Origin: a virus
Reading direction: 5' to 3' (one strand)
Virus record (IMG/VR): IMGVR_UViG_3300049027_000072
Coordinates: 1-64,000 of that record
Length of the DNA stretch: 64,000 nucleotides
Positions 23,533-48,794 of the stretch are shown in pieces. A model generated the notes under the pieces. It was not told the DNA's origin. It saw only the letters and a program-made list of their open reading frames with translations, and searched no databases. A program made the translations under genes and the position numbers. Position 1 is the first letter of the stretch; every line of letters begins with the position of its first letter.

Positions 23533-23555
23533 ATTCACTCACTTTTCACACACGA
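23533..23555 (+). repeat. Direct repeat copy 2 (ATTCACTCA-N4-TCACACACGA), overlapping the int stop
   Basis: See copy 1. The two copies flank the tRNA-like segment, 187 bp apart. Confidence 0.5.
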
Positions 23556-24738
23556 GTGGAGTCTCGGGTGCGGTCCAAAGTCTTGCCATCCCATACTTGC
23601 GCGGCGGCCTGTCAAAGCCTAACCGCTCGCCTTGCTCCACCCAGCGGCCGTAGGTCCGAATGACCATCTCCACGGTCTTGTGGCCGAGCAGCTTGGCGAT
23701 GTAGGCCGGGTTCTCGCCTTGGCTCAGGAGCTGGCTCGCGAAGGTGTGGCGCAATTGGTATGGGTTGCGGTAGGCAATCCCGGTGTGCTTGTGGGCGCGC
23801 TTCCACACTCCGGCCAGCTTCTTGTCGTCCCACGCCTTGTCCTTACGCGTGCTGCGCGCGTTCTGGAACACGCGGTCGCCCGATAGCAGGGTGAACTGGC
23901 GCTGCAGCTCGAACGCTTCGAGCGCTGCCGGCAGCAGCGGGATAGTGCGCCGCCCGGCCTTGGTCTTGGGGCGCGGCTTGTCCTTGCGCTCGGTGGTCGT
24001 CTCTTCAATGCGGATGGAGCCCGCCTCCAGGTCCACGCGCGGCCAGCGCAGGCCGACCTGCTCGCCGGTGCGCACCCCGGTGTAGGCCCAGGCCTGGAAC
24101 ACGTACCGCTCTGCCGGCGGCAGGTTGGCCAGCAGCGCGTGAATCTCCGCCTCGGTGTACGGCTCCGGCTCGAAGTCGCTCTCGCGCTTGTCGGGCGGCA
24201 CGAGGCCGGCGAGGTCGACCCGGTCCAGCGGGCTCGTCTTGATGATTTCGTCGGCCACGGCCTCGTTGAGCACATTCCGCAGAGGCAGCAGCCGGTTGCG
24301 GATGGTCTTGAGGCACACCGTCTGCAGGCCGACCCATTCCCGGATGTCTGCCGGCGTGAGGTCTGGGATGCGCTTGGTGCCGCACCAGGGCACGAGCTGG
24401 TGGTCGATGGCCTTGCGGTACGCTGCAAAGGTCGATGCCTCCAGGGTGTTCTTCACTCGGTCGCGGTAGGCCTCCAGCGCATCCTTGAGCGTCGGCGTGC
24501 GTCCTGGCCCGTGGCCGAAGACCGCGGCGCGCGGCGACTTCGGGAAGTAGTCGTCATAGCGGAAGTCGCCCCGGGTGATCTTGCCCAGGATCTCCGCGCG
24601 TAGGCGCTCACAGTAGGTGTCGTTTGCCTTGGTGTGGGGCAGTGCCAGCGGCTCGCGGCACTGCACCCCCATGAATGAAAACGCGATGCGGTAGAGCTGC
24701 TTGCCACCCTTGCGGGTGACGCGCGTAATGCCGTTCAC
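23539..24738 (-). CDS. int: Tyrosine integrase
   Basis: C-terminal catalytic motifs ...LRHTFASQLLSQGENPAYIAKLLGHKTVEMVIRTYGRW. The GTG at 24738 overlaps the xis stop (GTGA). The alternative listed start is 24810. Confidence 0.9.
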   Translation of the reverse strand: MNGITRVTRKGGKQLYRIAFSFMGVQCREPLALPHTKANDTYCERLRAEILGKITRGDFRYDDYFPKSPRAAVFGHGPGRTPTLKDALEAYRDRVKNTLEASTFAAYRKAIDHQLVPWCGTKRIPDLTPADIREWVGLQTVCLKTIRNRLLPLRNVLNEAVADEIIKTSPLDRVDLAGLVPPDKRESDFEPEPYTEAEIHALLANLPPAERYVFQAWAYTGVRTGEQVGLRWPRVDLEAGSIRIEETTTERKDKPRPKTKAGRRTIPLLPAALEAFELQRQFTLLSGDRVFQNARSTRKDKAWDDKKLAGVWKRAHKHTGIAYRNPYQLRHTFASQLLSQGENPAYIAKLLGHKTVEMVIRTYGRWVEQGERLGFDRPPRKYGMARLWTAPETPLVCEK

Positions 24739-24944
24739 TTTCTTTTTCCGTGCTGGTGGGCGGGCGTCTTCCCCGCCGCCCAGTCCTCCACCGCCCGTAG
24801 GTTGATCCACAGGTCACTGCTCCCCTCAGGTTTCCTTGCGTGTACATCCCGCAGCCAATGGCCGCGGCGTAGCCGGGCTGTGACGGCTTCAGCCGTCTCG
24901 CCGGTCGTGGCGATGTACCTTGGAAGTGGAACCCAGTCCAACAT
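24735..24944 (-). CDS. xis: Excisionase-like DNA-binding protein
   Basis: 69 aa immediately upstream of int and coupled to it. Sequence is WVPLPRYIATTGETAEAVTARLRRGHW...WINLRAVEDW. Confidence 0.65.
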   Translation of the reverse strand: MLDWVPLPRYIATTGETAEAVTARLRRGHWLRDVHARKPEGSSDLWINLRAVEDWAAGKTPAHQHGKRK

Positions 24945-29298: not shown

Positions 29299-30401
29299 GT
29301 CGGCTCCCCTGGTGCTTGGTTGGCGGCAGATTCGTGTTCCAGGTACATGCGAATCCGATCAAGCTCCAGCGCGTCTTCCACGCTCGAAAACGAGCGGTAA
29401 TGGAGCTTCGTATAGGCCCAGCGGAGAAGCTCGTGGACATACTGGAGGTCATCGCTCGACGGATCGGTCGTGGGCGCATCCCGCTCTACTGCTGGGGACG
29501 CTGCGACCTCCGCTGGTGCTTGGGTTGCGATGGCGCCGCTGATGTTTTCGACCTTGAACGAGGCGTCGCACCACTCGTCAAGAGACTTGGACCAGTCGGT
29601 TGTGTCTTCGGTGTCGCCACCGAACGCCGCCTCTACAACCAGCTTCGCAATCGCCGGGTTGTCGCGCAGCACGCGGTACCGCAGCACATCCCGTGCTGGG
29701 GATGCTGCGCGCGCTTGCCATGCCCACCACGCAGCGTGAGTGCGCCTGTCGGCGTAAACCTCATGGCCGTTGATACACGTCGCGTTCGGCACCTTCTGGA
29801 CGCTGTAGCCCTCACGCCGAGCCCAGTCTTCAAACGCCTCGCGCTCGGCCGACGCTTGGTCGTCTCGCGCGTTGTGGAATGCAGCGAGCGCTTCCCTTGC
29901 GACACGCACGCAAGACCATGACTCAGCCCTGTCTGCATCACCGTACTGGTCGCGGGCATGCTGCCGATTCATCTCGATAATCTTCAGCAGTGCGTCGCGG
30001 CACGCTCCCTCTGTGGCGATCATCGCTGGCACTTTGGCGTGTGCCGTGTCCGTAAGACCGGCATGGAAAAGCAGCTCCTGCAGGTCAGACAGCAAGACGG
30101 TTCTCCAAGGATCATTGGGCTCGCGGTCATGGTTGCCAACGCTATACGGCGGCTGCCCTGGCGGGTGCTTTGCCGCTGCGCGAAGGCGCTCTACAACCGC
30201 CCAACTCGTGCGCCACTTAACCGCTGGCGCTTGGGTGGATGCTGATAGTGCGGCGCACTGGCGGCCGTACTTGCGCATCTGGTCGGCGGTGTAGCCTTCC
30301 AGGCATCCCCACATCCCGCTCGGGCGCTGATATGGCAGTCCGCCAAACGCCTCAGGCAGCGGCGGCAGCGCAGGCTCTGCGGCTTTGGTGTCGTGTGTCA
30401 T
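29295..30401 (-). CDS. Hypothetical protein
   Basis: ATG at 30401 (ATGA overlap); 368 aa. Confidence 0.55.
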   Translation of the reverse strand: MTHDTKAAEPALPPLPEAFGGLPYQRPSGMWGCLEGYTADQMRKYGRQCAALSASTQAPAVKWRTSWAVVERLRAAAKHPPGQPPYSVGNHDREPNDPWRTVLLSDLQELLFHAGLTDTAHAKVPAMIATEGACRDALLKIIEMNRQHARDQYGDADRAESWSCVRVAREALAAFHNARDDQASAEREAFEDWARREGYSVQKVPNATCINGHEVYADRRTHAAWWAWQARAASPARDVLRYRVLRDNPAIAKLVVEAAFGGDTEDTTDWSKSLDEWCDASFKVENISGAIATQAPAEVAASPAVERDAPTTDPSSDDLQYVHELLRWAYTKLHYRSFSSVEDALELDRIRMYLEHESAANQAPGEPT

Positions 30402-31030
30402 GCTTGTCCTTCGGTCTTGGGAGTGGGTGGAAGCGGCATCCATCCCGTGGGCGGGTTCTCATTCGTAAATCCACCGTCCCAGCTGTACCAGGAGGCCTCA
30501 ACGCACTCCCCCGTCTCGTGCTGCCCGAGGTACTCTCCGGTGCCGCTGTGGTACTCGGCAGCGGTTGGCCACTGCTCTGCATGCCACTCGCCGGCAGTCA
30601 CGCGGCCGGGGGCGGCAAGCAATACCGTTGTGCCATCCTTGGGCGCTGTCTCGATTGGCCGCCACGCACTAGCCCACTCCAGCTCCACAACCCGCTGGAG
30701 CAATTCGCCTCGCTGCTGGGCTAGCTCGTCTCGCTCTCGTGTTAGCTCTGCGATGAGTGATTCGTTGTCCATCGAAATCCCCTTTTGTTCATTCGCGATT
30801 CGCAGCTTGCGGTTGATTGCCTCGATGCAGGCCAGCGCGATCGCGCCAACCTTCACCATGTCGGCCCGAATGGTCCTCAGATCGACCATCGGCAGATCGC
30901 CGACAACGTGCCTCGTTGCGTAGTGGCTCACCAGCGCGGCCCACTCGCCGATGCTCCATGTGTCATCCGCGGCGTGGTCCCATCGCGCTAGTTGTGCGAC
31001 GCGCTCGGCTTGAATCTCTTGAATGCTCAT
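30398..31030 (-). CDS. DUF551-like C-terminal domain protein; N-terminal helical domain (DUF550/MazG-like?)
   Basis: ATG at 31030 (ATGA overlap). The WRPIETAPKDGTTVLLA motif is typical of DUF551. The N-terminal assignment is weak. Confidence 0.45.
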   Translation of the reverse strand: MSIQEIQAERVAQLARWDHAADDTWSIGEWAALVSHYATRHVVGDLPMVDLRTIRADMVKVGAIALACIEAINRKLRIANEQKGISMDNESLIAELTRERDELAQQRGELLQRVVELEWASAWRPIETAPKDGTTVLLAAPGRVTAGEWHAEQWPTAAEYHSGTGEYLGQHETGECVEASWYSWDGGFTNENPPTGWMPLPPTPKTEGQA

Positions 31031-31776
31031 AGCAGGCTTCCCTGGTCTTCCGGCTGGTACTCGGGGACCGCGAAACCCCAACGGGTTGCGGCGTTCTGGG
31101 ATTCGATGCGCGCGCGCATGACGGCCGCTCTGGCCTCTTTTGTCGGCGGCGTGTACGTGCCGCGCCAGGCCTGGTCGATGCCGATGTTTCGGCCGATGTT
31201 TGTGCTGTCAGCGCTGCTGAATGGCAGGTGGGTGAAGATCGCCGGATCCAGCATGCGCAACCCGTGGAGCTTGCACAGCGGGCGCCCATCGTCGTCACAT
31301 ACAACGCGCATTGCGCGCGCAATCTGGCCCCACCATGCGGCGGTGCCGATGGTCGCGAACTCACCCGAGCTGCCTATGCACACGCGAGGCCAACTCGACG
31401 CCAAGCGCTCAAGACGCTCCAGGCTCTCGTGCATATGCCAGACAGGCGCGCCGAACCATCGCGGTAGCGGCCACTCAGCGAGTAGCGCGTCGTTGTCGGC
31501 CTCGCTGCCGTCGATCACATCCGGCACCACCGCGAAGTCGCAAGACGGGATCAGCTTGCACTGCGCCGCCCACTCGTAGAACGGCTTCCAGTCGGCCACT
31601 GGCACGCCGCGCTTCCAGGCGGTGAACGCGCCGTTATCCACTGCGAATGACTGACACACCGCCGCAGCCAGGGCCAGGTTGCGCGGCTCGGCGAAGCTGA
31701 CGAAGCCGTGCCCAGCGTCCAGCACTACCACGGCGGCGGTCTCTGGTGTGATGGGTAGTCCGTGATAGGGAATCAT
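31027..31776 (-). CDS. tRNA-guanine-transglycosylase-fold protein, DpdA-like DNA transglycosylase candidate
   Basis: 249 aa. AVDNGAFTAW (compare TGT DSGGFQ), RVCIGSSGEF (compare AIGGL), KLHGLRMLDP and FSSADSTNIG (compare GxDxFD). No Zn-binding CxCxxC motif is seen. Confidence 0.45.
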   Translation of the reverse strand: MIPYHGLPITPETAAVVVLDAGHGFVSFAEPRNLALAAAVCQSFAVDNGAFTAWKRGVPVADWKPFYEWAAQCKLIPSCDFAVVPDVIDGSEADNDALLAEWPLPRWFGAPVWHMHESLERLERLASSWPRVCIGSSGEFATIGTAAWWGQIARAMRVVCDDDGRPLCKLHGLRMLDPAIFTHLPFSSADSTNIGRNIGIDQAWRGTYTPPTKEARAAVMRARIESQNAATRWGFAVPEYQPEDQGSLL

Positions 31777-31782
31777 GGGCGG

Positions 31783-31959
31783 TCAGCGTTCTGGCATCAG
31801 GTGGGTTGCGTCTTCGTCTTCGTGCTCGTCTGCGTGGTCTTCCACGTCGAACACCTCGCCGCATGCAGCGCAACGCTCAAGCCGGTCATCGGCCTGGCCG
31901 CAGTCGTCGCCGTCGTCGTACTGGTAGGTCACCTTGCATCCGCACTTCGGGCACGCCAT
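31783..31959 (-). CDS. Small zinc-ribbon protein with an acidic tail
   Basis: ATG at 31959; MACPKCGC...CAACGE (2x CxxC), then DVEDHADEHEDED. Confidence 0.5.
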   Translation of the reverse strand: MACPKCGCKVTYQYDDGDDCGQADDRLERCAACGEVFDVEDHADEHEDEDATHLMPER

Positions 31960-31961
31960 CG

Positions 31962-32918
31962 CTACCTCGTGTCGGTGGGGTGCGGGAAGCCGTTGTGCTC
32001 CACGCCGTCGAGCAGGCGGCCTGCGGCCTTCTTGCCGGCCCAGCCCATGTAGGTGCCGTCCGGGTGCCGGTGCTTCTCCCCGCGCACTGGCACGCCCTCC
32101 GCGTGGCCCATCATTGGGATCCACTCACCCCATTGCTTGAACAGGAACGGGACGCCGGCCTCGGCGCACTGGTCGCGCAGCGAGCGGGCCCAGTCGGGAT
32201 GCATGGGCCGCGCGTGCGGGCCGCTCTCGCCGCCTGCGATGACCCAGTCCAGGGCCGGCACATCGGCGCATGGGTCGCCTTCTCCGTCCACGCAATCGGT
32301 GGTGCCCTTGAGCGGGTATATCTCCAGGTCGCCGTCGATGTCGATGCGCGTCAAGTCGATGGGCCCCAGCATCGGCTCGATGCTCAGGAACCGAACCCGC
32401 GCCGGCACGGCCAGGAGCTTCTGGATGTCGCGGTCGGCCTCTTCCTGGTTCACCACAGTTGCGCCGATCCACACATGGGGCCACGGCCACGCCAACGGAT
32501 GATCAGCCGGCAGCGCCTTAATGTTGTCGGGCAGCGTCTCCGCGATCATGCGTGCAGCGTTGCCGATCCGCTTGGTAAGCAGGAGCCAATCAAGGTGCGG
32601 CGTGCTCAGGATGAGGTTGAACAGGTCGCGCCGCCATCCCGCCGGCACCTGGTTATCGAACACGTCGGCAAGCGAGGCGCAGAACACCCGGAAGCGCCTG
32701 CCCTCGCGCTCGGCCTGCGCGTTCCACTTCCCAGGGTCCTTCCACGTGGTGTCGCTGGTGCGCCGCCGCGGGCCTCCCCAGCCCTCCGGCGTCCAGCGGC
32801 GGAATGCGTCCTGCCGCGCGGCGTAGCACCCGTCGCACCCGGGGCCGACCTTCGTGCAGCCGATCCACGGGTTGAACGTGTGGTCGCACCACTCGATCTT
32901 GCTGTTCTCTGCCATCAC
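31962..32918 (-). CDS. Phage Gp37/Gp68 family protein (DUF5131, three-Cys motif)
   Basis: N-terminal KIEWCDHTFNPWIGCTKVGPGCDGCYA and C-terminal DWVIAGGESGPHARPMHPDWARSLRDQC...GVPFLFKQWGEW match the family signature. Confidence 0.8.
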   Translation of the reverse strand: MMAENSKIEWCDHTFNPWIGCTKVGPGCDGCYAARQDAFRRWTPEGWGGPRRRTSDTTWKDPGKWNAQAEREGRRFRVFCASLADVFDNQVPAGWRRDLFNLILSTPHLDWLLLTKRIGNAARMIAETLPDNIKALPADHPLAWPWPHVWIGATVVNQEEADRDIQKLLAVPARVRFLSIEPMLGPIDLTRIDIDGDLEIYPLKGTTDCVDGEGDPCADVPALDWVIAGGESGPHARPMHPDWARSLRDQCAEAGVPFLFKQWGEWIPMMGHAEGVPVRGEKHRHPDGTYMGWAGKKAAGRLLDGVEHNGFPHPTDTR

Positions 32919-33169
32919 GTCTTCCTCTCAACGATGCGAACCGTCCCATACCGCATGTGCGTCTGCGCGACGTGCACGGGCTCGCCTATGGGTGCGTCGT
33001 GCCGGCTCTTGAAGACGATGTGACCGCTTGAGTCAAGGCGGTAGAGCAGGGCGTAGAACGACTCCTCGTTCGCCTCGACCACCGCATGCGACGGGATCAG
33101 TTCGCCGTCGATGCGCACGTCGTACCGGGCCATCTCCTCGGCGGTCTGCTCGTCTCGTGAGAGCCTCAT
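32915..33169 (-). CDS. Hypothetical protein
   Basis: 84-aa ORF with an ATGA overlap. Confidence 0.5.
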   Translation of the reverse strand: MRLSRDEQTAEEMARYDVRIDGELIPSHAVVEANEESFYALLYRLDSSGHIVFKSRHDAPIGEPVHVAQTHMRYGTVRIVERKT

Positions 33170-33387: not shown

Positions 33388-34056
33388 TCAGGCGCTCATC
33401 AGCACTTCTCTGTGCCCATTTGGGGCCATGGGACTGACGACGCCGACCCGCTCCAAAGCCTCCAACAGTCGGGCGGCGCGGTTGTAGCCAATCGCGAGGT
33501 GCCGCTGAACCAGACTGATGCTGGCGCGCCTGTTCTCTGTGACGATGTCGCGAGCGCGCGGGAGCAACTCGTCGTCGTCAGTCGGAGCGCTGGACGCCTG
33601 CCCAAGGCCTTCCCCGGCCTTCTGGTCATCAAGAAGAGACGGCTGGGCGCGCAGGTCGATGTCGACGTCCTCGGCGTACCGCTCTGCGAGAATTGCGACA
33701 TCGGTCTTCGTCGGCTCGAAGGTCAGGGTCATCGTTACCGCGGCGCGGAAGCTGTCTTTCGGCTCCACCCGGAACTTGTGGACCTTCACGCCGGTGAAGT
33801 GGAGGCCGCAAACCTCTGCCGTGCAGTCAGGCACTTCGCCGCCGAACTCGATCTTGTTGATCAGCGGGTTGCGGACGATGCCCGCGGCGCTCCACAGGAA
33901 ATGCCGGAGTCCGGTGTCCAGGTAGTCAGGCAACGCCATATCGGTGCTGGCCTCCACCTTCATGTCGACCTTCAGCACCTTCTCGTCATCACCTTCTTTG
34001 CGGATGTTGAGATGGCGAAGGATTGCGCTGCCCTTGAACTGGAACTGATGGCTCAT
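33388..34056 (-). CDS. Protein with a C-terminal FtsK-gamma winged-helix domain
   Basis: The C-terminal [56 protein letters not shown] matches the FtsK gamma (KOPS-binding) domain. The N-terminal ~140 aa are unknown. Confidence 0.75.
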
Positions 34057-34074: not shown

Positions 34075-34515
34075 CTAGAACGGGATGTCGTCGTCCATGT
34101 CGTCAAAGCCGCTCGCGGCGCTTGCCGGTGCGGGCCTTGTCGGCGCGGGACGCTGCTTGGGCTGTGGGGCTGGTGCTGGCGCTTCGCTCTGCTGCGGCGC
34201 AGGACCGGCGAACTCGATCGACGCGACGCGGGCGGCCAGCTTGGAGCCGACCGTGTTGTCGCTGCGCTTGAAGGTCTCGATGTGGACGTCTTCGAGCACG
34301 ACCACGACGGCCTGGCCCTTCACGAGGTACGAGGCCATGGACTCGGCCTGCTTGCCCCACAGGGAGGCGTCCACCCACTGGGTGGGACGCTTACCGTCCT
34401 CGCCCTTGCGGCCATAGGAAAAGGCCAGAGACAGGTTGGCTACTGCGGTACCTTCCGGGGTGTAACGCACCTCGCAGTCGCGTCCGATGATGGCGCGGCC
34501 GAATGCCTGGAGCAT
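34075..34515 (-). CDS. ssb: Single-stranded DNA-binding protein
   Basis: OB-fold N-terminus, Pro/Ala/Gln-rich linker and an acidic tip ...FDDMDDDIPF. Confidence 0.9.
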   Translation of the reverse strand: MLQAFGRAIIGRDCEVRYTPEGTAVANLSLAFSYGRKGEDGKRPTQWVDASLWGKQAESMASYLVKGQAVVVVLEDVHIETFKRSDNTVGSKLAARVASIEFAGPAPQQSEAPAPAPQPKQRPAPTRPAPASAASGFDDMDDDIPF

Positions 34516-35721: not shown

Positions 35722-36507
35722 TCAGCCGAAGATGCTTTCGGGCAGCAGTTGCGGGGTTGGGGTGGCAGCAGGCGCCTTCGCGGCGGTGGCTGGGCGTGCC
35801 GTGGCAAGCTCGTCAGCGCCGCTCCATGGGGCCGGATCTGGTGCCGGCAGGCCAGCCTTGGCCCGGTGGCTCAGTGCGGCGCGGTACTCCTCGACCAGCT
35901 TGTCGAATGCAACGAGGTCGCGCTCCAGCTCGAAGATTCGGTCGTCGTTGCGCTCGATCCGGTGCAGGACGAAATCGAGCCCGATGGGCGCTAGGGCAGG
36001 GCAGTACAGGCCGAAGTTCCACGCCTTGCGGTGCGTGATCCACATCCCGCCGTCGCACTGGTCGATCACATCGGTCACGTCGCCAGAAAGCAGGATCGCG
36101 CGGAGCTTGTCCGGGGCGAGAAAGCACTTGTACTCAGCGCCCTCGTCGTCACCGATGAATCCGTCAGCGCTGGCGCCGAACTTGCCGTCGTCGGTGGTGA
36201 CGAAGCCCACCTCTTCGACCAGCACGTCGTGACGCAGCTCGTGCTGCATGCGGGCCTGTGACTCAAGCTGCACGCCGCGCTCGGCCTGCCAGCCCACCCA
36301 GTCCTCACCTTCGACCGGCGCCTTGGCGATTCGCTCTATGGCGAGGTGGAAGGCAAGCTTCTTCGCATCGTCTTTGTAGTCGCCCTTGTTCGGGCCGGTC
36401 TTGAGCTTGGCCGACTCGCGCAGCAGCTTGAACTTGCTGGCCGAGATCACGCCGGCCCTGGCCATGTGCCACTCGACGCTGCCCTGCTTCACGCGGTGGA
36501 CGATCAT
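35722..36507 (-). CDS. YqaJ/lambda-Exo-like recombination exonuclease
   Basis: N-terminal KQGSVEWHMARAGVISASKF; lies adjacent to the annealing protein gene. Confidence 0.8.
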   Translation of the reverse strand: MIVHRVKQGSVEWHMARAGVISASKFKLLRESAKLKTGPNKGDYKDDAKKLAFHLAIERIAKAPVEGEDWVGWQAERGVQLESQARMQHELRHDVLVEEVGFVTTDDGKFGASADGFIGDDEGAEYKCFLAPDKLRAILLSGDVTDVIDQCDGGMWITHRKAWNFGLYCPALAPIGLDFVLHRIERNDDRIFELERDLVAFDKLVEEYRAALSHRAKAGLPAPDPAPWSGADELATARPATAAKAPAATPTPQLLPESIFG

Positions 36508-37319
36508 TTCTGCCCCTTCAGTGCGTTGCGATGAGCCACTACAGCGCCTCTGAACTCGGTGTAGGCCGCCTCGTGCTTAAGGGCATGTAGTGCCTTGGAT
36601 CCGGTGGCCCACAGGGCCGCCGCCTGTTCATCCGTTTGGCAGCGCTTCAGGTCCGCGAGCAGGCCGTCTAGCACCTTCTCAACGACCGATCCAGGCGTGT
36701 CCGCGCCGCTTGCCCCGTTGCCGTCGTCGTCGAACTCGCCAACAGCCACGTTGAAGATCTTCTTCAGCAGGTTGCGCATGCCGTAGCTGTCGGCGGACAT
36801 GGTGGCGTGCGTCTTCGTCATCACGTCGCCGCCCTTCGCCCCCTTACCATCGGCCGGCATGTCGCAGTGGTAGGTGCGGGTGAACCCGCCGCAGGAGACG
36901 TAGGCCAGGACGCGCACATGACCTTCGGGGGCGCCCTCGCCCGTGTTGAAGCTGATCGAGAATCCGTGCCGCGTGTAGATCGGGCGCAATATGCCGTCGA
37001 GCTTTGCGTAGGTCGCGTAGCGGCTACGGGTCTGGTTATTCGTGGCGTCAGCGGAGATTGGCGCCATTTCCGCCTGGGCGAGGTTCATCTTGGCGTTGAA
37101 CACCTCCTCGGCGGCACGGCTGCTCAGCTTCTCGTGCATTAACCACAGGCGCTCCATCTTTTCGATGTCGACCCTTGGGTCACTGGCTGCGGAGGCGATT
37201 ACGTGAATGAGGCTTTGGGCCTCGGTCGCTCGGAGCGCAGGAACAGACGCTTGCTGGTGCTGCTCCACTGCTGACACAGCAGTGAGCGCTGTATCCATGC
37301 CGATGGTCTCGACGGTCAT
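36504..37319 (-). CDS. Single-strand annealing protein, ERF/Rad52-like
   Basis: RSRYATYAKLDGILRPIYTRHGFSISF...SADSYGMRNLLKKIFNVAVGEFDDDGN parallels P22 Erf motifs. ATGA overlap with the exonuclease gene. Confidence 0.55.
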   Translation of the reverse strand: MTVETIGMDTALTAVSAVEQHQQASVPALRATEAQSLIHVIASAASDPRVDIEKMERLWLMHEKLSSRAAEEVFNAKMNLAQAEMAPISADATNNQTRSRYATYAKLDGILRPIYTRHGFSISFNTGEGAPEGHVRVLAYVSCGGFTRTYHCDMPADGKGAKGGDVMTKTHATMSADSYGMRNLLKKIFNVAVGEFDDDGNGASGADTPGSVVEKVLDGLLADLKRCQTDEQAAALWATGSKALHALKHEAAYTEFRGAVVAHRNALKGQK

Positions 37320-45280: not shown

Positions 45281-47781
45281 GCGACTACCGCTCCTTCTTG
45301 GAAAGCAAATTCAAGTTCAGCCAGTTCCACGGATTCGACGTGGCGGAGGACGAGGTGAACCCGGCGCTCAAGCCGTTCACCCGCGACGTGGTCCGGTGGG
45401 CGTGCAAGGGTGGACGGCGTGCGCTGTTCATGTCGTTCGGCCTGCATAAGACCGTCACGCAGTTGGAGATCATGCGCCTCGTCGGTGTGCACGACGAAGG
45501 CCTTCGCCTCATCGTCATTCCGCTCGGCGTGCGCCAGGAGTTCAAGCGCGACGCGGAGACCTTCTTCGCCGGATTGAAGCTGAAGTTCATCCGGCGCGCG
45601 GACGAGATCGAAGGCACGGACACCATCTACCTCACCAACTACGAGTCGGTGCGCGATGGGAAGCTCGACGTGAGCTTGTTCACCGCGGTATCACTCGACG
45701 AGGCCGCTGTGCTGCGCAGCTTCGGCAGCAAGACGTACCAGGAGTTCTTGACTCTGTTCGATGGCGTGAAGTACCGCTTCGTCGCCACCGCCACGCCCAG
45801 CCCGAACCGCTACAAGGAACTGATCCACTACGCCGGGTTCCTGGGCGTGATGGACACCGGCCAGGCGCTGACGCGGTTCTTCCAGCGCGACAGCACGCAG
45901 GCGAACAACCTGACGCTGTACCCGCACAAAGAGCGCGAGTTCTTCCTGTGGCTGCACTCGTGGGCACTGTTCGTCCAGAAGCCGAGCGACCTGGGCTACG
46001 GCGACGATGGATATGCACTGCCGGAACTGCGCGTGCACTATCACGAGCTGCCGGCGCCTGAGGTCGACGCGAAAGCCGATCGCGACGGGCAGTTGTCGAT
46101 GGTGCGCGATGCAGCTCTTGGTCTGGCGGACGCGGCAACCGAGAAGCGCGAGAGCATTTCCGCCCGCGTGGCGAAGCTGCAGGAGATCCTGCGCGCCGAG
46201 CCTGACCGGCACGCCATCCTGTGGCACGACCTGGAAGCCGAGCGCGAGGCCATCAAGCGTGCGGTCCCGAACGCGGTAGAGGTGTATGGCTCGCTCGACC
46301 TGGACGAGCGCGAAGAGCGGATCGTCACGTTCAGCGATGGCGGGAGCCAGTACCTCGCGACGAAGCCGAGCATCAGCGGGGCCGGGTGCAACTTCCAGCG
46401 GCATTGCTCGATGGCGGTGTTCACGGGCATCGGCTACGAGTTCCACGACTTCATCCAGTCGATCCACCGCATCCAGCGCTTCGGGCAGCGCCAGGTCTGC
46501 GATGTGCACATCATCTATACCGAGACCGAGCGGGAAGTTCTGAAGGTCCTGCAGCGCAAGTGGGCCGAGCATGACCAGCTCAGTGTGCGCATGAGCGAAG
46601 TCATCCGGCAGTTCGGGCTGTCAACAACCGGCTTCGAGCAACAGCTGGCCAGGACCATCGGCCTCAAGCGTTGCGAAGAAAGCGGTACCGGCTGGGTGGT
46701 GGCGAACAACGACTGCGTGGACGAGTGCGACCTGATCGGTAGCAACTCGGTCGACCTGATCCACACCAGCATCCCGTTCGGCAACCACTACGAGTACAGC
46801 GCGAGCTACAACGACTTCGGCCACAACGAGGACAACCCGCGGTTCTTCGAGCAGATGGATTTCCTGACGCCGAAACTGCTGCGCATCCTCAAGCCGGGCC
46901 GCGTGGCTGCGATCCACGTCAAGGACCGCATCCGCTTCGGGAACGTCACCGGATACGGCATGCCCTCTGTGGATCCGTTCCACAGCGACTGCATCGCGCA
47001 CTACCGAAAGCACGGCTTCGTGTACTTCGGAATGATCACCGTGGTCACCGACGTCGTGCGCGAGAACAACCAGACGTACCGGCTGGGCTGGAGCGAGCAG
47101 TGCAAGGACGGCACGAAGATGGGCGTCGGATCGCCTGAGTACGTGCTCTTGTTCCGCAAGCTGCCGACCGACACGAGCAAGGGCTACGCCGACGAGCGCG
47201 TCTCGAAGACCAAGGAGGAATACACCCGGGGCCGCTGGCAGATCGATGCCAGCGCATTCTGGAGATCGAGCGGGAACCGGCAGCTGTCGGCCGCAGAGAT
47301 GGCGAGCTATGGGCCCGACAAGCTGGGCAAGGTATTCGCCGACACCAGCTTGCGCACGATCTACGACTACGACGAGCACGTAAAGCTCGCGGAAGCGCTA
47401 GACGAGCGCGGGGCGCTGCCAAGCACGTTCGCATGCATGACGCCGGGTAGTCACCACCCGGAGGTGTGGCACGACGTGAACCGCATGCTGACCCTCAACG
47501 GTGAGCAGTCGCGCCGGGGCCTTGAGCAGCACATATGCCCGCTCCAGTTCGACATCGTGGACCGGGTCATCAACAGGTTCACCAACAAAGGTGAGCTGGT
47601 GTTCGACCCGTTCGGGGGTCTATTCACCGTCCCGCTGCGGGCCGTGAAGCTTGGACGTAGAGGCCGGGCAACCGAGCTGAACCCTAGCTACTTCCGGGAC
47701 GGCGTGCGCCACCTGCGCGCACAAGACATGGAGTTGAGCGCGCCGACGCTGTTCGACTTCGAGGACCTGGAGGCAGCTTGA
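45277..47781 (+). CDS. SNF2/DEAD-like helicase domain fused to a beta-class N6A/N4C DNA methyltransferase
   Basis: ATG at 45277 (ATGA overlap); 834 aa. Helicase-like motifs are FGLHKT (degenerate motif I), SLDEAA (II) and QSIHRIQRFGQ (VI). The MTase motif IV-like HTSIPFGN precedes motif I VFDPFGGLFT. Confidence 0.75.
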   Translation: MSDYRSFLESKFKFSQFHGFDVAEDEVNPALKPFTRDVVRWACKGGRRALFMSFGLHKTVTQLEIMRLVGVHDEGLRLIVIPLGVRQEFKRDAETFFAGLKLKFIRRADEIEGTDTIYLTNYESVRDGKLDVSLFTAVSLDEAAVLRSFGSKTYQEFLTLFDGVKYRFVATATPSPNRYKELIHYAGFLGVMDTGQALTRFFQRDSTQANNLTLYPHKEREFFLWLHSWALFVQKPSDLGYGDDGYALPELRVHYHELPAPEVDAKADRDGQLSMVRDAALGLADAATEKRESISARVAKLQEILRAEPDRHAILWHDLEAEREAIKRAVPNAVEVYGSLDLDEREERIVTFSDGGSQYLATKPSISGAGCNFQRHCSMAVFTGIGYEFHDFIQSIHRIQRFGQRQVCDVHIIYTETEREVLKVLQRKWAEHDQLSVRMSEVIRQFGLSTTGFEQQLARTIGLKRCEESGTGWVVANNDCVDECDLIGSNSVDLIHTSIPFGNHYEYSASYNDFGHNEDNPRFFEQMDFLTPKLLRILKPGRVAAIHVKDRIRFGNVTGYGMPSVDPFHSDCIAHYRKHGFVYFGMITVVTDVVRENNQTYRLGWSEQCKDGTKMGVGSPEYVLLFRKLPTDTSKGYADERVSKTKEEYTRGRWQIDASAFWRSSGNRQLSAAEMASYGPDKLGKVFADTSLRTIYDYDEHVKLAEALDERGALPSTFACMTPGSHHPEVWHDVNRMLTLNGEQSRRGLEQHICPLQFDIVDRVINRFTNKGELVFDPFGGLFTVPLRAVKLGRRGRATELNPSYFRDGVRHLRAQDMELSAPTLFDFEDLEAA

Positions 47782-48794
47782 CCGACAGCACCGCACTCCC
47801 TGAACCGCTCGTACCGGCCGAGGTGGACCTGCGGGACTTCTCCTGGATGCCCGTGGAGATCCACCGCCTGCGCCGGTCCAAGGCGTGGCTGCTGTGCAAG
47901 CGCAAGCCTGAGCTCGCCTTCTACATGCTCAACCTCTGGACCGCATCTTGGCACGACACGCCGGCGGCCTCGCTGGAGGATGACGACGACGTGCTTGCCG
48001 ACCTGGCGATGTGTGACCCGGCCAAGTGGGCGAAGGTCCGCGAACAGGTGCTGCGTGGGTGGGTGAAGTGCGCTGACGGTCGCCTCTATCACCAAGTCGT
48101 TGCAGACAAAGCGAAGGAGGCGTGGACGCAGAAACAGGCGCAGCGACAGCGTACTGAAGCGGCCAGGATGGCGCGAGAACAGAAGCGGCGACAGACACAG
48201 CAACTAGCGCAGTCAGATGCGCCGACAGACTCTGTCGCAACCTCTGTCACAGACATTGCCACTGAATCCAACAGAACAGAACAGACCGGACAGGGAACGG
48301 AGAGGGAACGGAACGGAGAGGGAACGGAGACTCTACCTGTGGTGGGCGCCGGGCCGCCTGCCGCCCCTTCCGCCGCTGACGCGGCGGCCACCACAGGGCA
48401 GGACCGCGGGGCGCGTCTGCCGAAGGACTGGGCGCTGCCGAAGGCTTGGGGGGACTGGGCGATCGCCGAGTACCCGCTGTGGACGGCCGAGAAGGTGCGC
48501 AAGGAGGCCGCCGCATTCCGCGACCACTGGACCGCGAAGACCGGCAAGGACGCGACGAAGCTCGACTGGAACGCGACATGGCGCAACTGGTGCCGCAGCG
48601 ACATCGCCCACCGCGACGACCCGAAGCCGGGGCGTGCTGGGCCGATGTCCGATGCCGAGCGGGAGGCGGCAAACGCCGCAGCCACAGCAGAGGCCAGGCG
48701 CCTCTACCTCGCCAAGCGCGCCGGCGGGGATGTGATCGACGCCGTGACAACCGTGATCGAGGACGCGCACCCAACCATGGAGCAGCTCACGTGA
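47778..48794 (+). CDS. Replication protein with an N-terminal DUF1376 domain
   Basis: FSWMPVEIHRLRRSKAWLLCKRKPELAFYMLNLWTASWHD...DDDVLADLA...WAKVREQVLRGW is typical of DUF1376 replication/primosome proteins. Confidence 0.7.
   Translation: MTDSTALPEPLVPAEVDLRDFSWMPVEIHRLRRSKAWLLCKRKPELAFYMLNLWTASWHDTPAASLEDDDDVLADLAMCDPAKWAKVREQVLRGWVKCADGRLYHQVVADKAKEAWTQKQAQRQRTEAARMAREQKRRQTQQLAQSDAPTDSVATSVTDIATESNRTEQTGQGTERERNGEGTETLPVVGAGPPAAPSAADAAATTGQDRGARLPKDWALPKAWGDWAIAEYPLWTAEKVRKEAAAFRDHWTAKTGKDATKLDWNATWRNWCRSDIAHRDDPKPGRAGPMSDAEREAANAAATAEARRLYLAKRAGGDVIDAVTTVIEDAHPTMEQLT
48268..48330 (+). repeat. Purine-rich tandem repeats (ACAGA x3; GGGAACGGAGA x3) inside the replication gene; ori/iteron candidate
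   Basis: caACAGAACAGAACAGAccggaca GGGAACGGAGA GGGAACGGAacgGAGA GGGAACGGAGA, preceded by small palindromes CGACAGactCTGTCG and TCTGTcACAGA (48224-48255). Confidence 0.6.

What the first reader, a model, noticed from the sequence alone, without database searches (positions are those of the whole stretch)
30398..32918. Candidate DNA-modification cluster: TGT-fold (DpdA-like) enzyme, zinc ribbon, Gp37/Gp68 (DUF5131) and a DUF551 protein
Four translationally linked early genes are involved.
- The 249-aa protein (31027-31776) carries motifs that line up with the tRNA-guanine transglycosylase fold: VDNGAFT (TGT DSGGFQ), CIGSSGEF (AIGGL), KLHGLRML and FSSADSTN (GxDxFD, nucleophile Asp). It lacks the Zn-binding CxCxxC. 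This is the pattern expected of DpdA-type DNA transglycosylases, which insert 7-deazaguanines into phage DNA.
- A 58-aa 2x CxxC zinc ribbon with an acidic tail lies between it and the next gene.
- A clear Gp37/Gp68 family protein follows (KIEWCDHTFNPWIGCTKVGPGCDGCYA), a widespread but uncharacterised three-Cys enzyme family.
- A DUF551-type protein lies downstream.

No preQ0 synthesis genes (folE, queD, queE, queC) are present anywhere in the window. Either host preQ0 is used or the base or chemistry is different. I do not know of the DpdA-like/DUF5131 pairing as a described system. TIGRFAMs does note a 'TcmP' partner family for DUF5131, and the 249-aa protein should be tested against it.
Basis: partly seen in the sequence, partly recalled or inferred. 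Interest (0 to 1): 0.72.

Follow-up and report, generated by a model that had tools for sequence, protein, structure and literature searches.

The report
Solo phage DpdA gene, unrelated neighbours
The 249-residue protein belongs to the known family of phage enzymes (DpdA) that swap guanine in DNA for 7-deazaguanine bases, here of the already catalogued "DpdA-only" type that must borrow the base from its host, and the neighbouring genes are unrelated passengers rather than parts of a new modification system.

Summary

- **249-aa protein:** it is a phage DpdA. It shares PHROG 887 with the experimentally validated phage 9g DpdA, and hhalign gives 98.1% probability against it. The catalytic Asp/His/Asp are invariant, and the model is a confident TIM barrel.
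- **Link to 7-deazaguanine:** close relatives (70-78% identical) sit directly next to queC, queE and queD.
- **No precursor genes here:** the window has no preQ0 genes. That places the phage in the "DpdA-only" group described in 2019 (Hutinet et al.), which includes my 50-54%-identical hits SfI, SPN3UB, BTP1 and Athena1.
- **The proposed pairing fails:**
  - DUF5131 lies near DpdA-like genes in 2 of 80 viral and 0 of 61 genome loci.
  - The reverse count is 1 of 80.
  - Controls anchored on SSB give similar rates.
  - Nucleotide homology to relatives stops at each gene's borders.
  - Gene order differs wherever both genes occur.
- **Other claims:** the 249-aa protein is not TcmP, and the downstream protein is not DUF551 by Pfam.

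Verdict: a new member of a known kind, of low interest.

The parts
31027..31776 (-). Solo dpdA-like gene (249 aa): a minimal TIM-barrel DNA guanine transglycosylase of the phage DpdA family. Predicted catalytic residues are D47 (general acid/base), H171 and D190 (nucleophile).
   Evidence: - PHROG 887 match at 1.4e-67; 9g DpdA falls in the same PHROG.
- hhalign of the family profile against 9g DpdA: probability 98.1%, E 9.6e-14.
- D47, H171, S188, D190 and S191 are invariant in 47 diverse members. They align to 9g D72, H196 and D215.
- AlphaFold2 model: pLDDT 94.4, beta/alpha barrel.
- Foldseek hits: TIM barrels and archaeosine TGT in PDB, phage 'queuine tRNA-ribosyltransferases' in BFVD.
- Nucleotide homology to the closest relatives spans only 31776 to about 31023-31061.
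31783..31959 (-). 58-aa zinc-ribbon ORF (CPKC...CAAC) with an acidic tail. It is an adjacent orphan small gene and is not associated with either neighbour elsewhere.
   Evidence: - Only weak zinc-ribbon hits, all below Pfam cut-offs; PHROG 10675 at 3.3e-5.
- No homologue in 80 DpdA-like, 80 DUF5131 or 61 genome loci.
- Small 2xCxxC ORFs are found in 0/76 loci upstream of DpdA-like genes and 2/76 downstream of DUF5131.
31962..32915 (-). DUF5131 (phage Gp37/Gp68) protein, 317 aa, with an invariant Cx6CxxC motif (C20, C27, C30). It is an independent single-gene module belonging to the radical-SAM superfamily, and its function is unknown.
   Evidence: - PF07505 at 4.3e-87; PHROG 2045 at 4e-103.
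- Invariant cysteines.
- C-terminal similarity to TIGR04471, radical SAM mobile pair protein A.
- Listed as a radical-SAM subgroup in PMC9477430.
- PADLOC candidate-defence components PDC-M41B and PDC-M30B at about 1e-46.
- Foldseek PDB gives nothing significant; spore photoproduct lyase is ranked 3 at E 0.04.
- Homology to relatives is confined to 32919-31983.
30398..31030 (-). 210-aa protein of unknown function, translationally coupled (ATGA) to the dpdA-like gene. It is not a detectable DUF551 member.
   Evidence: - No Pfam or NCBIfam hit.
- No Pfam family on record for the identical protein on the source contig.
- Its N-terminal ~95 residues recur downstream of DpdA-like genes in only 2 of 80 loci (L015, L075).
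- Its C-terminal part matches one phage record only.
32915..33169 (-). 84-aa ORF of unknown function whose stop overlaps the DUF5131 start. It belongs to the same early operon.
   Evidence: no family hit.

Best explanation
The window comes from a temperate phage, about 68.5 kb and 65% G+C, whose host is probably in the Comamonadaceae.

Gene 31027-31776 (minus strand) encodes a minimal, 249-residue member of the phage DpdA family. These are TIM-barrel DNA guanine transglycosylases related to tRNA-guanine transglycosylase.

**Inferred mechanism**
1. After replication, D190 attacks C1' of a target deoxyguanosine, and guanine leaves with help from D47.
2. A 7-deazaguanine base is then installed. 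It is most likely preQ0, or a close derivative made by the host's queuosine pathway.
3. The result is a sequence-specific, probably low-level modification that blunts restriction.

The phage carries no precursor genes, so it depends on the host pool. This is the already described 'DpdA-only' arrangement.

The DUF5131 gene, the zinc-ribbon ORF and the 210-aa gene are separate accessory modules. They happen to lie in the same hypervariable early operon and are not partners of DpdA.

**Shown here:** family membership, conserved catalytic residues, the fold, the link of close relatives to que genes, and the absence of any conserved pairing.

**Inferred:** that DNA is the substrate, the identity of the inserted base, the use of host precursor, and the protective role.
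For: **Family membership**
- PHROG 887 'queuine tRNA-ribosyltransferase' matches at 1.4e-67. The validated 9g DpdA falls in the same PHROG at 2e-98.
- hhalign of a 47-sequence profile against 9g DpdA gives 98.1% probability, E 9.6e-14, over 153 columns.

**Catalytic residues**
- Invariant D47, H171 and D190 align with 9g D72, His196 and D215.
- His196 is the DpdA hallmark histidine cited in PMC6884629.
- The two aspartates correspond to the mutationally validated acid/base and nucleophile of bacterial DpdA (PMC10164549).

**Fold**
- AlphaFold2 pLDDT is 94.4, with alternating beta/alpha elements.
- All top PDB hits are TIM barrels. Archaeosine TGT 1j2b has the highest query TM-score, 0.52.
- BFVD hits are phage queuine tRNA-ribosyltransferases, for example Arthrobacter phage Mufasa8 at E 7.6e-10, TM 0.72.

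**Pathway context in relatives**
- L011 (78% identical) has dpdA-like, then QueC (PF06508, 1.8e-38), then a radical SAM QueE-like gene, then QueD (PF01242, 1.2e-29), with overlapping junctions.
- 20 of 80 viral loci and 5 of 61 genome loci carry at least one que-like gene in the fetched flanks.

**Precedent for host precursor use**
- 9g DpdA expressed alone in E. coli puts host preQ0 into plasmid DNA, 790 per 10^6 nt (PMC6884629).
- Like this protein, 9g DpdA has no CxCxxC zinc motif.

**Known group**
- SfI, SPN3UB, BTP1 and Athena1 are my 50-54%-identical tblastn hits. They are listed as DpdA-only phages in Supplementary Data 1 of PMC6884629.

**Independence of the neighbours**
- Co-occurrence counts, SSB and Erf controls, and module borders and variable gene order.
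Against: - No direct sequence link to canonical TGT was found:
  - No Pfam PF01702 hit for any of 47 family members at E<=1.
  - No PDB sequence hit with the profile.
  - hhalign against E. coli Tgt gives 0.6% probability.
  The TGT link therefore rests on 9g DpdA and the literature.
- Foldseek against PDB ranks generic TIM barrels (TrpA) above TGT. Bacterial DpdA is not in the top 50.
- The base-binding Asp equivalent is ambiguous (D86 or D89).
- Of the two DpdA-only phages examined experimentally, Orion had no modification and 7-11 had only 0.02% dADG. Modification here may be absent or very sparse.
- The host is unknown (metagenomic contig), so its preQ0 capacity is unverified.
- The absence of que genes was tested by tblastn only, not by HMM on every ORF.
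Confidence: 0.7

Rival explanations
1. DUF5131, the zinc ribbon, the DpdA-like enzyme and the downstream protein form one DNA-modification system, with the radical-SAM-like DUF5131 making or further modifying the base that DpdA inserts.
For: - The genes are adjacent, co-directional and translationally coupled.
- DUF5131 belongs to the radical-SAM superfamily, a chemistry used elsewhere in deazapurine synthesis (QueE).
- Three other loci carry both genes within 0.4-5 kb (L005, L030, L098).
Against: - DUF5131 occurs near only 2/80 viral and 0/61 genome DpdA-like loci. DpdA-like occurs near only 1/80 DUF5131 loci.
- SSB-anchored control loci give 3/80 DpdA-like and 0/80 DUF5131, so there is no enrichment.
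- Order and spacing differ in every case.
- Homology with the closest relatives ends at each gene's borders.
- The zinc ribbon has no homologue in any of 221 loci.
- No que gene was detected in the 80 DUF5131 loci.
- The DpdA-like gene occurs alone in most phages and prophages.
Confidence: 0.04
2. The DpdA-like protein is real, but this phage's DNA is not 7-deazaguanine-modified. Either the enzyme is idle for lack of substrate, as in Mycobacterium phage Orion, or it acts on another target such as host tRNA or host DNA.
For: - DpdA-only phage Orion carried no modification, and 7-11 only 0.02% (PMC6884629).
- There are no precursor genes in the window.
- The host is unknown.
- The authors of PMC6884629 state that the modification status of this group is hard to predict.
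Against: - The catalytic residues are invariant across 47 diverse sequences drawn from a family of 726 clusters at 50% identity, which implies selection for activity.
- Close relatives are fused into operons with queC, queE and queD.
- The protein lacks the zinc subdomain and insertions that TGTs use to grip tRNA (PMC10164549).
- The closest prophage relatives are in Acidovorax, Variovorax, Achromobacter and Pseudomonas. From general knowledge, proteobacteria of this kind normally make queuosine.
Confidence: 0.17
3. This solo-DpdA clade inserts a base other than preQ0, for example preQ1, CDG, ADG or an unknown pterin-derived base.
For: - DpdA subfamilies have shifted substrate several times and can be promiscuous (PMC10516641).
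- 7-11 carried dADG rather than dPreQ0.
- 17 of 80 viral loci and 5 of 61 genome loci carry a PTPS/QueD-like hit as their only que-like gene.
- The one copy examined, in L070, abuts the DpdA-like gene and lacks the catalytic Cys.
Against: - The complete neighbour sets seen (QueC + QueE + QueD in L011) are the standard preQ0 route.
- preQ0 is the default substrate of the closest validated relative, 9g DpdA.
- Nothing in this window points to another base.
Confidence: 0.09

Closest known systems
Phage DpdA (DpdA1) of Enterobacteria phage 9g, the validated DNA 7-deazaguanine transglycosylase (Hutinet et al. 2019, PMC6884629)
   Same: - Same PHROG 887.
- hhalign probability 98.1%.
- Conserved Asp, His196-equivalent and Asp.
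- No CxCxxC zinc site in either protein.
- Neither protein is detected by NCBIfam, and this family is not detected by Pfam either.
   Different: - Only about 22% identity over 153 aligned columns.
- 249 aa versus 317 aa, with shorter N- and C-terminal extensions.
- 9g carries folE, queD, queE and gat-queC next to dpdA; this window carries none.
The 'DpdA-only' phage group (third group of Hutinet et al. 2019: Enterobacteria phage SfI, Salmonella phages SPN3UB and BTP1, Vibrio phage Athena1, Salmonella phage 7-11, and others)
   Same: - 50-54% identical over about 92-95% of the protein to the SfI, SPN3UB, BTP1 and Athena1 proteins. These phages are listed as DpdA-only in Supplementary Data 1.
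- SfI, SPN3UB and BTP1 are temperate phages (general knowledge), and the SfI and BTP1 genes sit among accessory genes such as DUF1317 and ead/Ea22.
- No precursor genes.
   Different: - The host lineage is probably betaproteobacterial: the closest prophages are in Acidovorax and Variovorax at 84-86%.
- Here the gene sits next to DUF5131, which is rare.
- My data show that close relatives of this protein are not uniformly solo: 25 of 141 relatives carry que-like genes in their flanks.
Bacterial DpdA of the Dpd restriction-modification system (Salmonella Montevideo; PMC10164549)
   Same: TIM-barrel transglycosylase with an acid/base Asp and a nucleophile Asp; it exchanges guanine for preQ0 in DNA.
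   Different: - Bacterial DpdA is about 400 aa, with four insertions and a CXCX2CX22H zinc site, and needs the DpdB ATPase.
- The 249-aa protein has no zinc motif and no large Ins8.
- A DpdB-like partner was not specifically searched for; the adjacent genes give no such family hit.
tRNA-guanine transglycosylases (Pfam PF01702; bacterial, archaeal and eukaryotic TGT)
   Same: (beta/alpha)8 barrel; archaeosine TGT 1j2b_A is among the Foldseek hits (E 9.9e-3, query TM 0.52).
   Different: - No HMM-level or hhalign similarity.
- No zinc subdomain and no tRNA-binding domains.
DUF5131 / phage Gp37-Gp68 family (PF07505) with its TcmP partner (TIGR04474); PADLOC candidate systems PDC-M30 and PDC-M41
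   Same: - The 317-aa protein is a full-length PF07505 member with the three invariant cysteines.
- It matches the B components of PDC-M30 and PDC-M41.
   Different: - No TcmP and no PADLOC 'A' partner was found among the neighbours or among the larger unassigned ORFs of the window.
- The 249-aa protein is not TcmP.

Membership tests
Phage DpdA (DNA 7-deazaguanine transglycosylase, TGT superfamily) | Detectable homology to an experimentally validated DpdA | tested here: met
   hhalign of profile A1 against 9g DpdA: probability 98.1%, E 9.6e-14. Both proteins fall in PHROG 887.
Phage DpdA (DNA 7-deazaguanine transglycosylase, TGT superfamily) | (beta/alpha)8 TIM-barrel fold | tested here: met
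   AlphaFold2 pLDDT 94.4, pTM 0.90, with alternating strands and helices. All significant PDB hits are TIM barrels, and aTGT 1j2b_A has query TM 0.52.
Phage DpdA (DNA 7-deazaguanine transglycosylase, TGT superfamily) | General acid/base Asp (S. Montevideo DpdA Asp95; 9g D72) | tested here: met
   D47 is invariant in 47 diverse members and aligns to 9g LDSGAF D72.
Phage DpdA (DNA 7-deazaguanine transglycosylase, TGT superfamily) | Nucleophile Asp (S. Montevideo DpdA Asp256; 9g D215) | tested here: met
   D190 is invariant within the S-x-D-S motif and aligns to 9g SCDSSS D215.
Phage DpdA (DNA 7-deazaguanine transglycosylase, TGT superfamily) | Conserved histidine (9g His196) | tested here: met
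   H171 is invariant and aligns to 9g KVHGFG H196. This histidine is cited as a DpdA feature in PMC6884629.
Phage DpdA (DNA 7-deazaguanine transglycosylase, TGT superfamily) | Base-binding Asp (S. Montevideo DpdA Asp130) | tested here: inconclusive
   In the PDVIDG segment, D86 is nearly invariant while D89 aligns to the Asp of 9g VLDG. Which one is equivalent could not be settled without model coordinates.
Phage DpdA (DNA 7-deazaguanine transglycosylase, TGT superfamily) | Genomic link to preQ0 synthesis genes | tested here: inconclusive
   Absent from this window. Present in close relatives: L011 has QueC, QueE and QueD immediately downstream, and 25 of 141 loci have at least one que-like gene. 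The literature accepts DpdA-only phages as members.
Phage DpdA (DNA 7-deazaguanine transglycosylase, TGT superfamily) | Guanine-to-7-deazaguanine exchange activity on DNA | not testable with these tools
   Needs LC-MS/MS or a guanine-exchange assay.
Canonical TGT / bacterial DpdA | Structural zinc site CxCxxC...H | tested here: not met
   No such motif in the 249-aa sequence. It is also absent from the active 9g DpdA, so it does not define phage DpdA.
Canonical TGT / bacterial DpdA | Match to Pfam PF01702 or to a TGT sequence | tested here: not met
   No Pfam hit for any of 47 members at E<=1. The profile gives no PDB sequence hit. hhalign against E. coli Tgt gives 0.6% probability.
TcmP, three-Cys-motif partner protein (TIGR04474), proposed for the 249-aa protein | Match to the TIGR04474 model | tested here: not met
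   The NCBIfam scan at E<=0.1 returned no family for the 249-aa protein or for the other neighbours. Nine further unassigned ORFs also gave none. No positive control for the model was run.
DUF5131 / Gp37-Gp68 (PF07505), for the 317-aa protein | Full-length HMM match and three conserved cysteines | tested here: met
   PF07505 at E 4.3e-87, covering profile positions 1-243 of 243. C20, C27 and C30 are invariant in 37 homologues.
DUF5131 / Gp37-Gp68 (PF07505), for the 317-aa protein | Adjacent TcmP partner (or PADLOC PDC-M30A/M41A) | tested here: not met
   No NCBIfam or PADLOC hit in the flanking genes.
DUF551 (PF04448), for the downstream protein | Match to the Pfam model | tested here: not met
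   No hit at E<=10 for the whole protein or for its C-terminal 100 residues. No Pfam family is on record for the identical protein.
Proposed DpdA-DUF5131 system | Co-occurrence of the two families beyond chance, with conserved synteny | tested here: not met
   Counts are 2/80, 0/61 and 1/80 with HMMs. SSB-anchored controls give 0/80 DUF5131 and 3/80 DpdA-like. Order and spacing differ in L005, L030, L098 and the window.

The most novel reading that the evidence does not exclude
In this phage, the chance juxtaposition has become functional. The radical-SAM-like DUF5131 enzyme, perhaps with the zinc-ribbon protein, would supply or further modify the base inserted by the solo DpdA and so give a 7-deazaguanine derivative not yet described. 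More broadly, the solo-DpdA clade may insert something other than preQ0; the recurrent PTPS-like neighbour, which lacks the catalytic Cys in the copy examined, hints at this.
Probability: 0.05. Interest if true: 0.7.

Novelty: new member of a known kind. Interest (0 to 1): 0.2.

Why it matters
If the solo DpdA is active, this phage marks its DNA with a host-derived 7-deazaguanine, which is a known anti-restriction strategy. Whether DpdA-only phages really modify their DNA is still open: the paper that defined the group tested only two, with one negative result and one of 0.02%.

This window does not make that question easier to test, because it is an uncultured metagenomic contig. The useful by-products are modest:
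- The clade is very large (726 clusters at 50% identity) and has no Pfam or NCBIfam model.
- It is not strictly solo: some members 70-78% identical sit in dpdA-queC-queE-queD operons, and others have a PTPS-like gene nearby.
- DUF5131 should not be read as a DpdA partner.

Tried and rejected
- **HMMER against Pfam and NCBIfam** for the 249-aa protein and 46 relatives gave no TGT and no TcmP hit.
- **Sequence and profile searches of PDB** gave nothing but coiled-coil noise.
- **hhalign against E. coli Tgt** gave nothing.
- **Foldseek against PDB** confirmed a TIM barrel but did not single out TGT.
- **DUF5131 structure:** the model reached pLDDT 79.6, and Foldseek gave no significant match; spore photoproduct lyase appeared only at E 0.04. 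The sequence search of PDB was empty.
- **DUF551** was rejected, and tblastn of the C-terminal domain found one unannotated phage hit.
- **Megablast of the region and of window 1-25000** against sequenced phages found no close relative.
- **The genome-collection scan with the alignment** failed for lack of a conserved stretch and was rerun with the single protein.
- **Erf as a control anchor** gave only 12 loci, so SSB was used instead.
- **Literature on DUF5131, Gp37/Gp68, TcmP, PDC-M30 and PDC-M41** contains only listings and no functional data.
- **The first clustering of neighbour ORFs** was polluted by spurious overlapping ORFs, which are typical of high-G+C DNA. It was useful only for spotting the PTPS-like neighbour.

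Full report
**What is there**

The region lies in a long minus-strand operon of a temperate phage. The operon contains:
- an Erf-like annealing protein (36504-37319);
- an exonuclease (35722-36507);
- SSB (34075-34515);
- an FtsK-gamma-domain protein (33388-34056).

An integrase lies further along the same strand at 23539-24810.

The exact 249-aa protein occurs on 68.5-kb contigs in two metagenome assemblies, Logan SRR35218543 and JGI 3300071358. No sequenced phage is close at the nucleotide level.

The genes of the finding are confirmed:
- DUF5131: 31962-32915 (317 aa from the ATG; a GTG at 32918 is an alternative start);
- a 58-aa zinc ribbon: 31783-31959;
- the 249-aa protein: 31027-31776;
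- a 210-aa protein: 30398-31030, whose ATG overlaps the preceding stop (ATGA).

All the quoted motifs are in the translations. The junctions are 2 nt, 6 nt and two 4-nt overlaps, as is usual in phage early operons.

**The 249-aa protein is a phage DpdA**

HMMER finds nothing in Pfam or NCBIfam. PHROG 887 ('queuine tRNA-ribosyltransferase') matches at 1.4e-67.

The family is large. It has 726 clusters at 50% identity with E<=1e-3, and more than 5,700 clusters at 90% identity among the candidates scored. Members are almost all 235-270 residues long.

In an alignment of 47 diverse members, D47, H171, S188, D190 and S191 are invariant, and P85, D86 and G90 are nearly so.

The experimentally validated DpdA of phage 9g (PMC6884629) falls in the same PHROG at 2e-98. 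It aligns to the family profile with 98.1% probability (E 9.6e-14, 153 columns). The alignment pairs:
- D47 with 9g D72;
- H171 with 9g His196, the histidine cited as a DpdA hallmark;
- D190 with 9g D215.

In bacterial DpdA, the corresponding aspartates are the general acid/base and the nucleophile. Mutating either abolishes guanine exchange (PMC10164549).

The AlphaFold2 model is confident (pLDDT 94.4, pTM 0.90) and is an alternating beta/alpha barrel, with the conserved residues at strand ends. Foldseek gave:
- against PDB, only TIM barrels, led by tryptophan synthase alpha (E about 6e-4, TM about 0.5), with archaeosine TGT 1j2b_A showing the best query TM-score (0.52, E 1e-2);
- against predicted viral structures, many phage 'queuine tRNA-ribosyltransferases', for example Arthrobacter phage Mufasa8 at E 7.6e-10 and TM 0.72.

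The missing CxCxxC zinc site is not an anomaly, because the active 9g enzyme lacks it too.

A direct sequence link to canonical TGT was tested and not found. That link rests on the literature.

**Context in relatives ties the clade to 7-deazaguanine**

I examined 80 viral loci encoding proteins 68-86% identical. Twenty carry at least one que-like gene in their flanks.
- In L011 (78% identical) the gene is followed, with overlapping junctions, by QueC (PF06508, 1.8e-38), a radical-SAM QueE-like gene and QueD (PF01242, 1.2e-29).
- L020 and L073, both short contigs, show QueC with or without QueE immediately downstream.
- Seventeen loci have a PTPS/QueD-like hit as their only que-like gene. In L070 this gene directly abuts the DpdA-like gene upstream.

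Five of 61 prokaryotic genome loci also carry a QueD-like gene.

The window itself has no FolE, QueD, QueE or QueC by tblastn with two query sets. The best spurious hit had E 0.056.

**This is the known DpdA-only situation**

The best hits among sequenced phages are 46-58% identical. They lie in Acinetobacter, Pantoea, Salmonella (SPN3UB, BTP1), Shigella (SfI), Klebsiella, Vibrio and Pseudomonas phages. In several records the gene sits beside accessory genes such as ead/Ea22 and DUF1317.

SfI, SPN3UB, BTP1 and Athena1 are listed in Supplementary Data 1 of Hutinet et al. 2019 as phages encoding DpdA only. That paper describes a 'third group' of 76 such phages. It proposes that they rely on host preQ0 or on uptake of a precursor. 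It also notes singleton-DpdA clusters specific to gammaproteobacterial phages.

The experimental data there cut both ways:
- 9g DpdA alone in E. coli inserts host preQ0 into plasmid DNA.
- The DpdA-only phage 7-11 carries only 0.02% dADG.
- Orion, whose host lacks the pathway, carries none.

The closest prophage relatives of the window protein are in Acidovorax (86%), Variovorax (84%), Achromobacter, Pseudomonas and Comamonas. The closest named DUF5131 relatives are also from Acidovorax. This fits a host in the Comamonadaceae at 65% G+C.

**The proposed pairing does not hold**

I searched six-frame ORFs with HMMs built from each family.

| Anchor of the loci | Loci | DpdA-like present | DUF5131 present |
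|---|---|---|---|
| DpdA-like, viral | 80 | 80 | 2 (L005, L030) |
| DpdA-like, genomes | 61 | 61 | 0 |
| DUF5131, viral | 80 | 1 (L098) | 80 |
| SSB control, viral (971 kb) | 80 | 3 | 0 |
| Erf control, viral | 12 | 0 | 0 |

There is therefore no enrichment.

Where both genes occur, the arrangement differs each time:
- window: DUF5131, 0.2 kb, then DpdA;
- L005: DpdA, 0.4 kb with an unrelated 82-aa ORF, then DUF5131;
- L030: DpdA, 2.9 kb, then DUF5131;
- L098: DpdA, 5 kb, then DUF5131.

Nucleotide similarity to the six closest DpdA-like loci covers only 31776 to about 31023-31061. Similarity to the closest DUF5131 loci covers only 32919-31983. Each gene is therefore its own mosaic module.

The zinc ribbon has no homologue in any of the 221 loci. 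Small 2xCxxC ORFs do not recur next to either family: 0/76 upstream of DpdA-like genes and 2/76 downstream of DUF5131.

**The other genes**

*DUF5131.* It is a textbook PF07505 member (4.3e-87), with C20, C27 and C30 invariant.
- Its C-terminal part resembles TIGR04471, 'radical SAM mobile pair protein A'.
- RadicalSAM.org lists DUF5131 as a subgroup in the same megacluster number as spore photoproduct lyase (PMC9477430).
- The model (pLDDT 79.6) gave no significant PDB match. Spore photoproduct lyase appeared only weakly, at rank 3, E 0.04.
- It matches the B components of the PADLOC candidate defence systems PDC-M41 and PDC-M30 at about 1e-46. No partner is present.
- No TcmP was found among the neighbours or nine other unassigned ORFs. 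The 249-aa protein is not TcmP.
- Its function remains unknown. The literature holds only listings.

*The downstream 210-aa protein.* It has no Pfam hit, so the DUF551 call is not supported.

**Mechanism and verdict**

The most likely account is this. The phage expresses, from its early operon, a minimal DpdA. The enzyme uses D190 as nucleophile and D47 as acid/base to exchange guanine in duplex DNA for a host-made 7-deazaguanine, most likely preQ0. It would act at specific motifs and probably at a low level, giving partial protection from restriction.

Shown here:
- family membership;
- residue conservation;
- the fold;
- the link of close relatives to que genes;
- the independence of the neighbours.

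Inferred:
- the substrate and the inserted base;
- the use of host precursor;
- the biological role.

I put 0.7 on this account as a whole. About 0.17 goes to an enzyme that leaves this phage's DNA unmodified or acts elsewhere, about 0.09 to a different inserted base, and about 0.04 to a real four-gene system.

This is a new member of a known kind and of low interest.

Noticed in passing
L070:1196-1639 (+); PTPS/QueD-like hits also in 16 other viral loci (mostly L056-L070) and in genome loci L174, L177, L181, L205 and L217: In L070 a short PTPS/QueD-like gene (PF01242, 5.9e-18) directly abuts the DpdA-like gene upstream. It lacks the catalytic Cys of QueD: its sequence reads 'DYPQIHGHSY' where 9g and L011 QueD have 'SKCRxLHGH'. 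Twenty-two loci in all (17 viral, 5 genome) have such a hit as their only que-like gene. I found no description of a DpdA plus PTPS-like-only arrangement in the parts of the papers I read.
   Followed up: partly
L011:10001-14009 (IMGVR_UViG_3300037471_001733): A compact operon of dpdA-like (78% identical to the window protein), queC, queE-like and queD is followed by RdgC (PF04381, 1.9e-97) and a weak Mom-family hit (PF25680, 6.1e-5, below the cut-off). The Mom-like gene could be a second DNA-modification gene next to the deazaguanine cluster.
   Followed up: partly
window:45106-47781 (+) and 47778-48794 (+): An 891-aa protein combines a DNA helicase region (PHROG 16, 1e-121) with a C-terminal N6/N4 DNA methyltransferase domain (PF01555, 4.4e-12; type II MTase models in PADLOC). 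It is followed by a DUF1376 protein. This is another candidate DNA-modification function in the same phage.
   Followed up: partly
window:31962-32915 (-): The DUF5131 protein matches the B components of two PADLOC candidate anti-phage systems (PDC-M41B at 6.4e-47, PDC-M30B at 4.5e-46), but no partner gene is present. A solo DUF5131 in a phage could be a defence remnant or a counter-defence gene.
   Followed up: partly
window:22172-23284 (-): A 370-aa GNAT acetyltransferase lies just beyond the integrase and looks like a moron or lysogenic-conversion gene. It matches PF13480 at 7.9e-27 and weakly resembles the Brucella effector crotonyl transferase BspF.
   Followed up: no
window:40122-41078 (-): A 318-aa protein matches NCBIfam NF053583, 'LAPAL motif-containing putative phage structural protein' (5.1e-84). 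It lies in the early/regulatory region rather than among the structural genes.
   Followed up: no
L005:1660-3123 (+): A 487-aa ORF immediately upstream of the DpdA-like gene contains a reverse-transcriptase-like motif (YVRYVDDFILL). This was judged by eye only and was not checked against any family library.
   Followed up: no
window:31027-31776 (-) and its family: This DpdA clade has 726 clusters at 50% identity and thousands at 90%. Neither the window protein nor any of the 46 relatives scanned matches a Pfam model, and the window protein has no NCBIfam match. Only PHROG 887 recognises it, so standard prokaryotic annotation labels these genes 'hypothetical protein'.
   Followed up: yes
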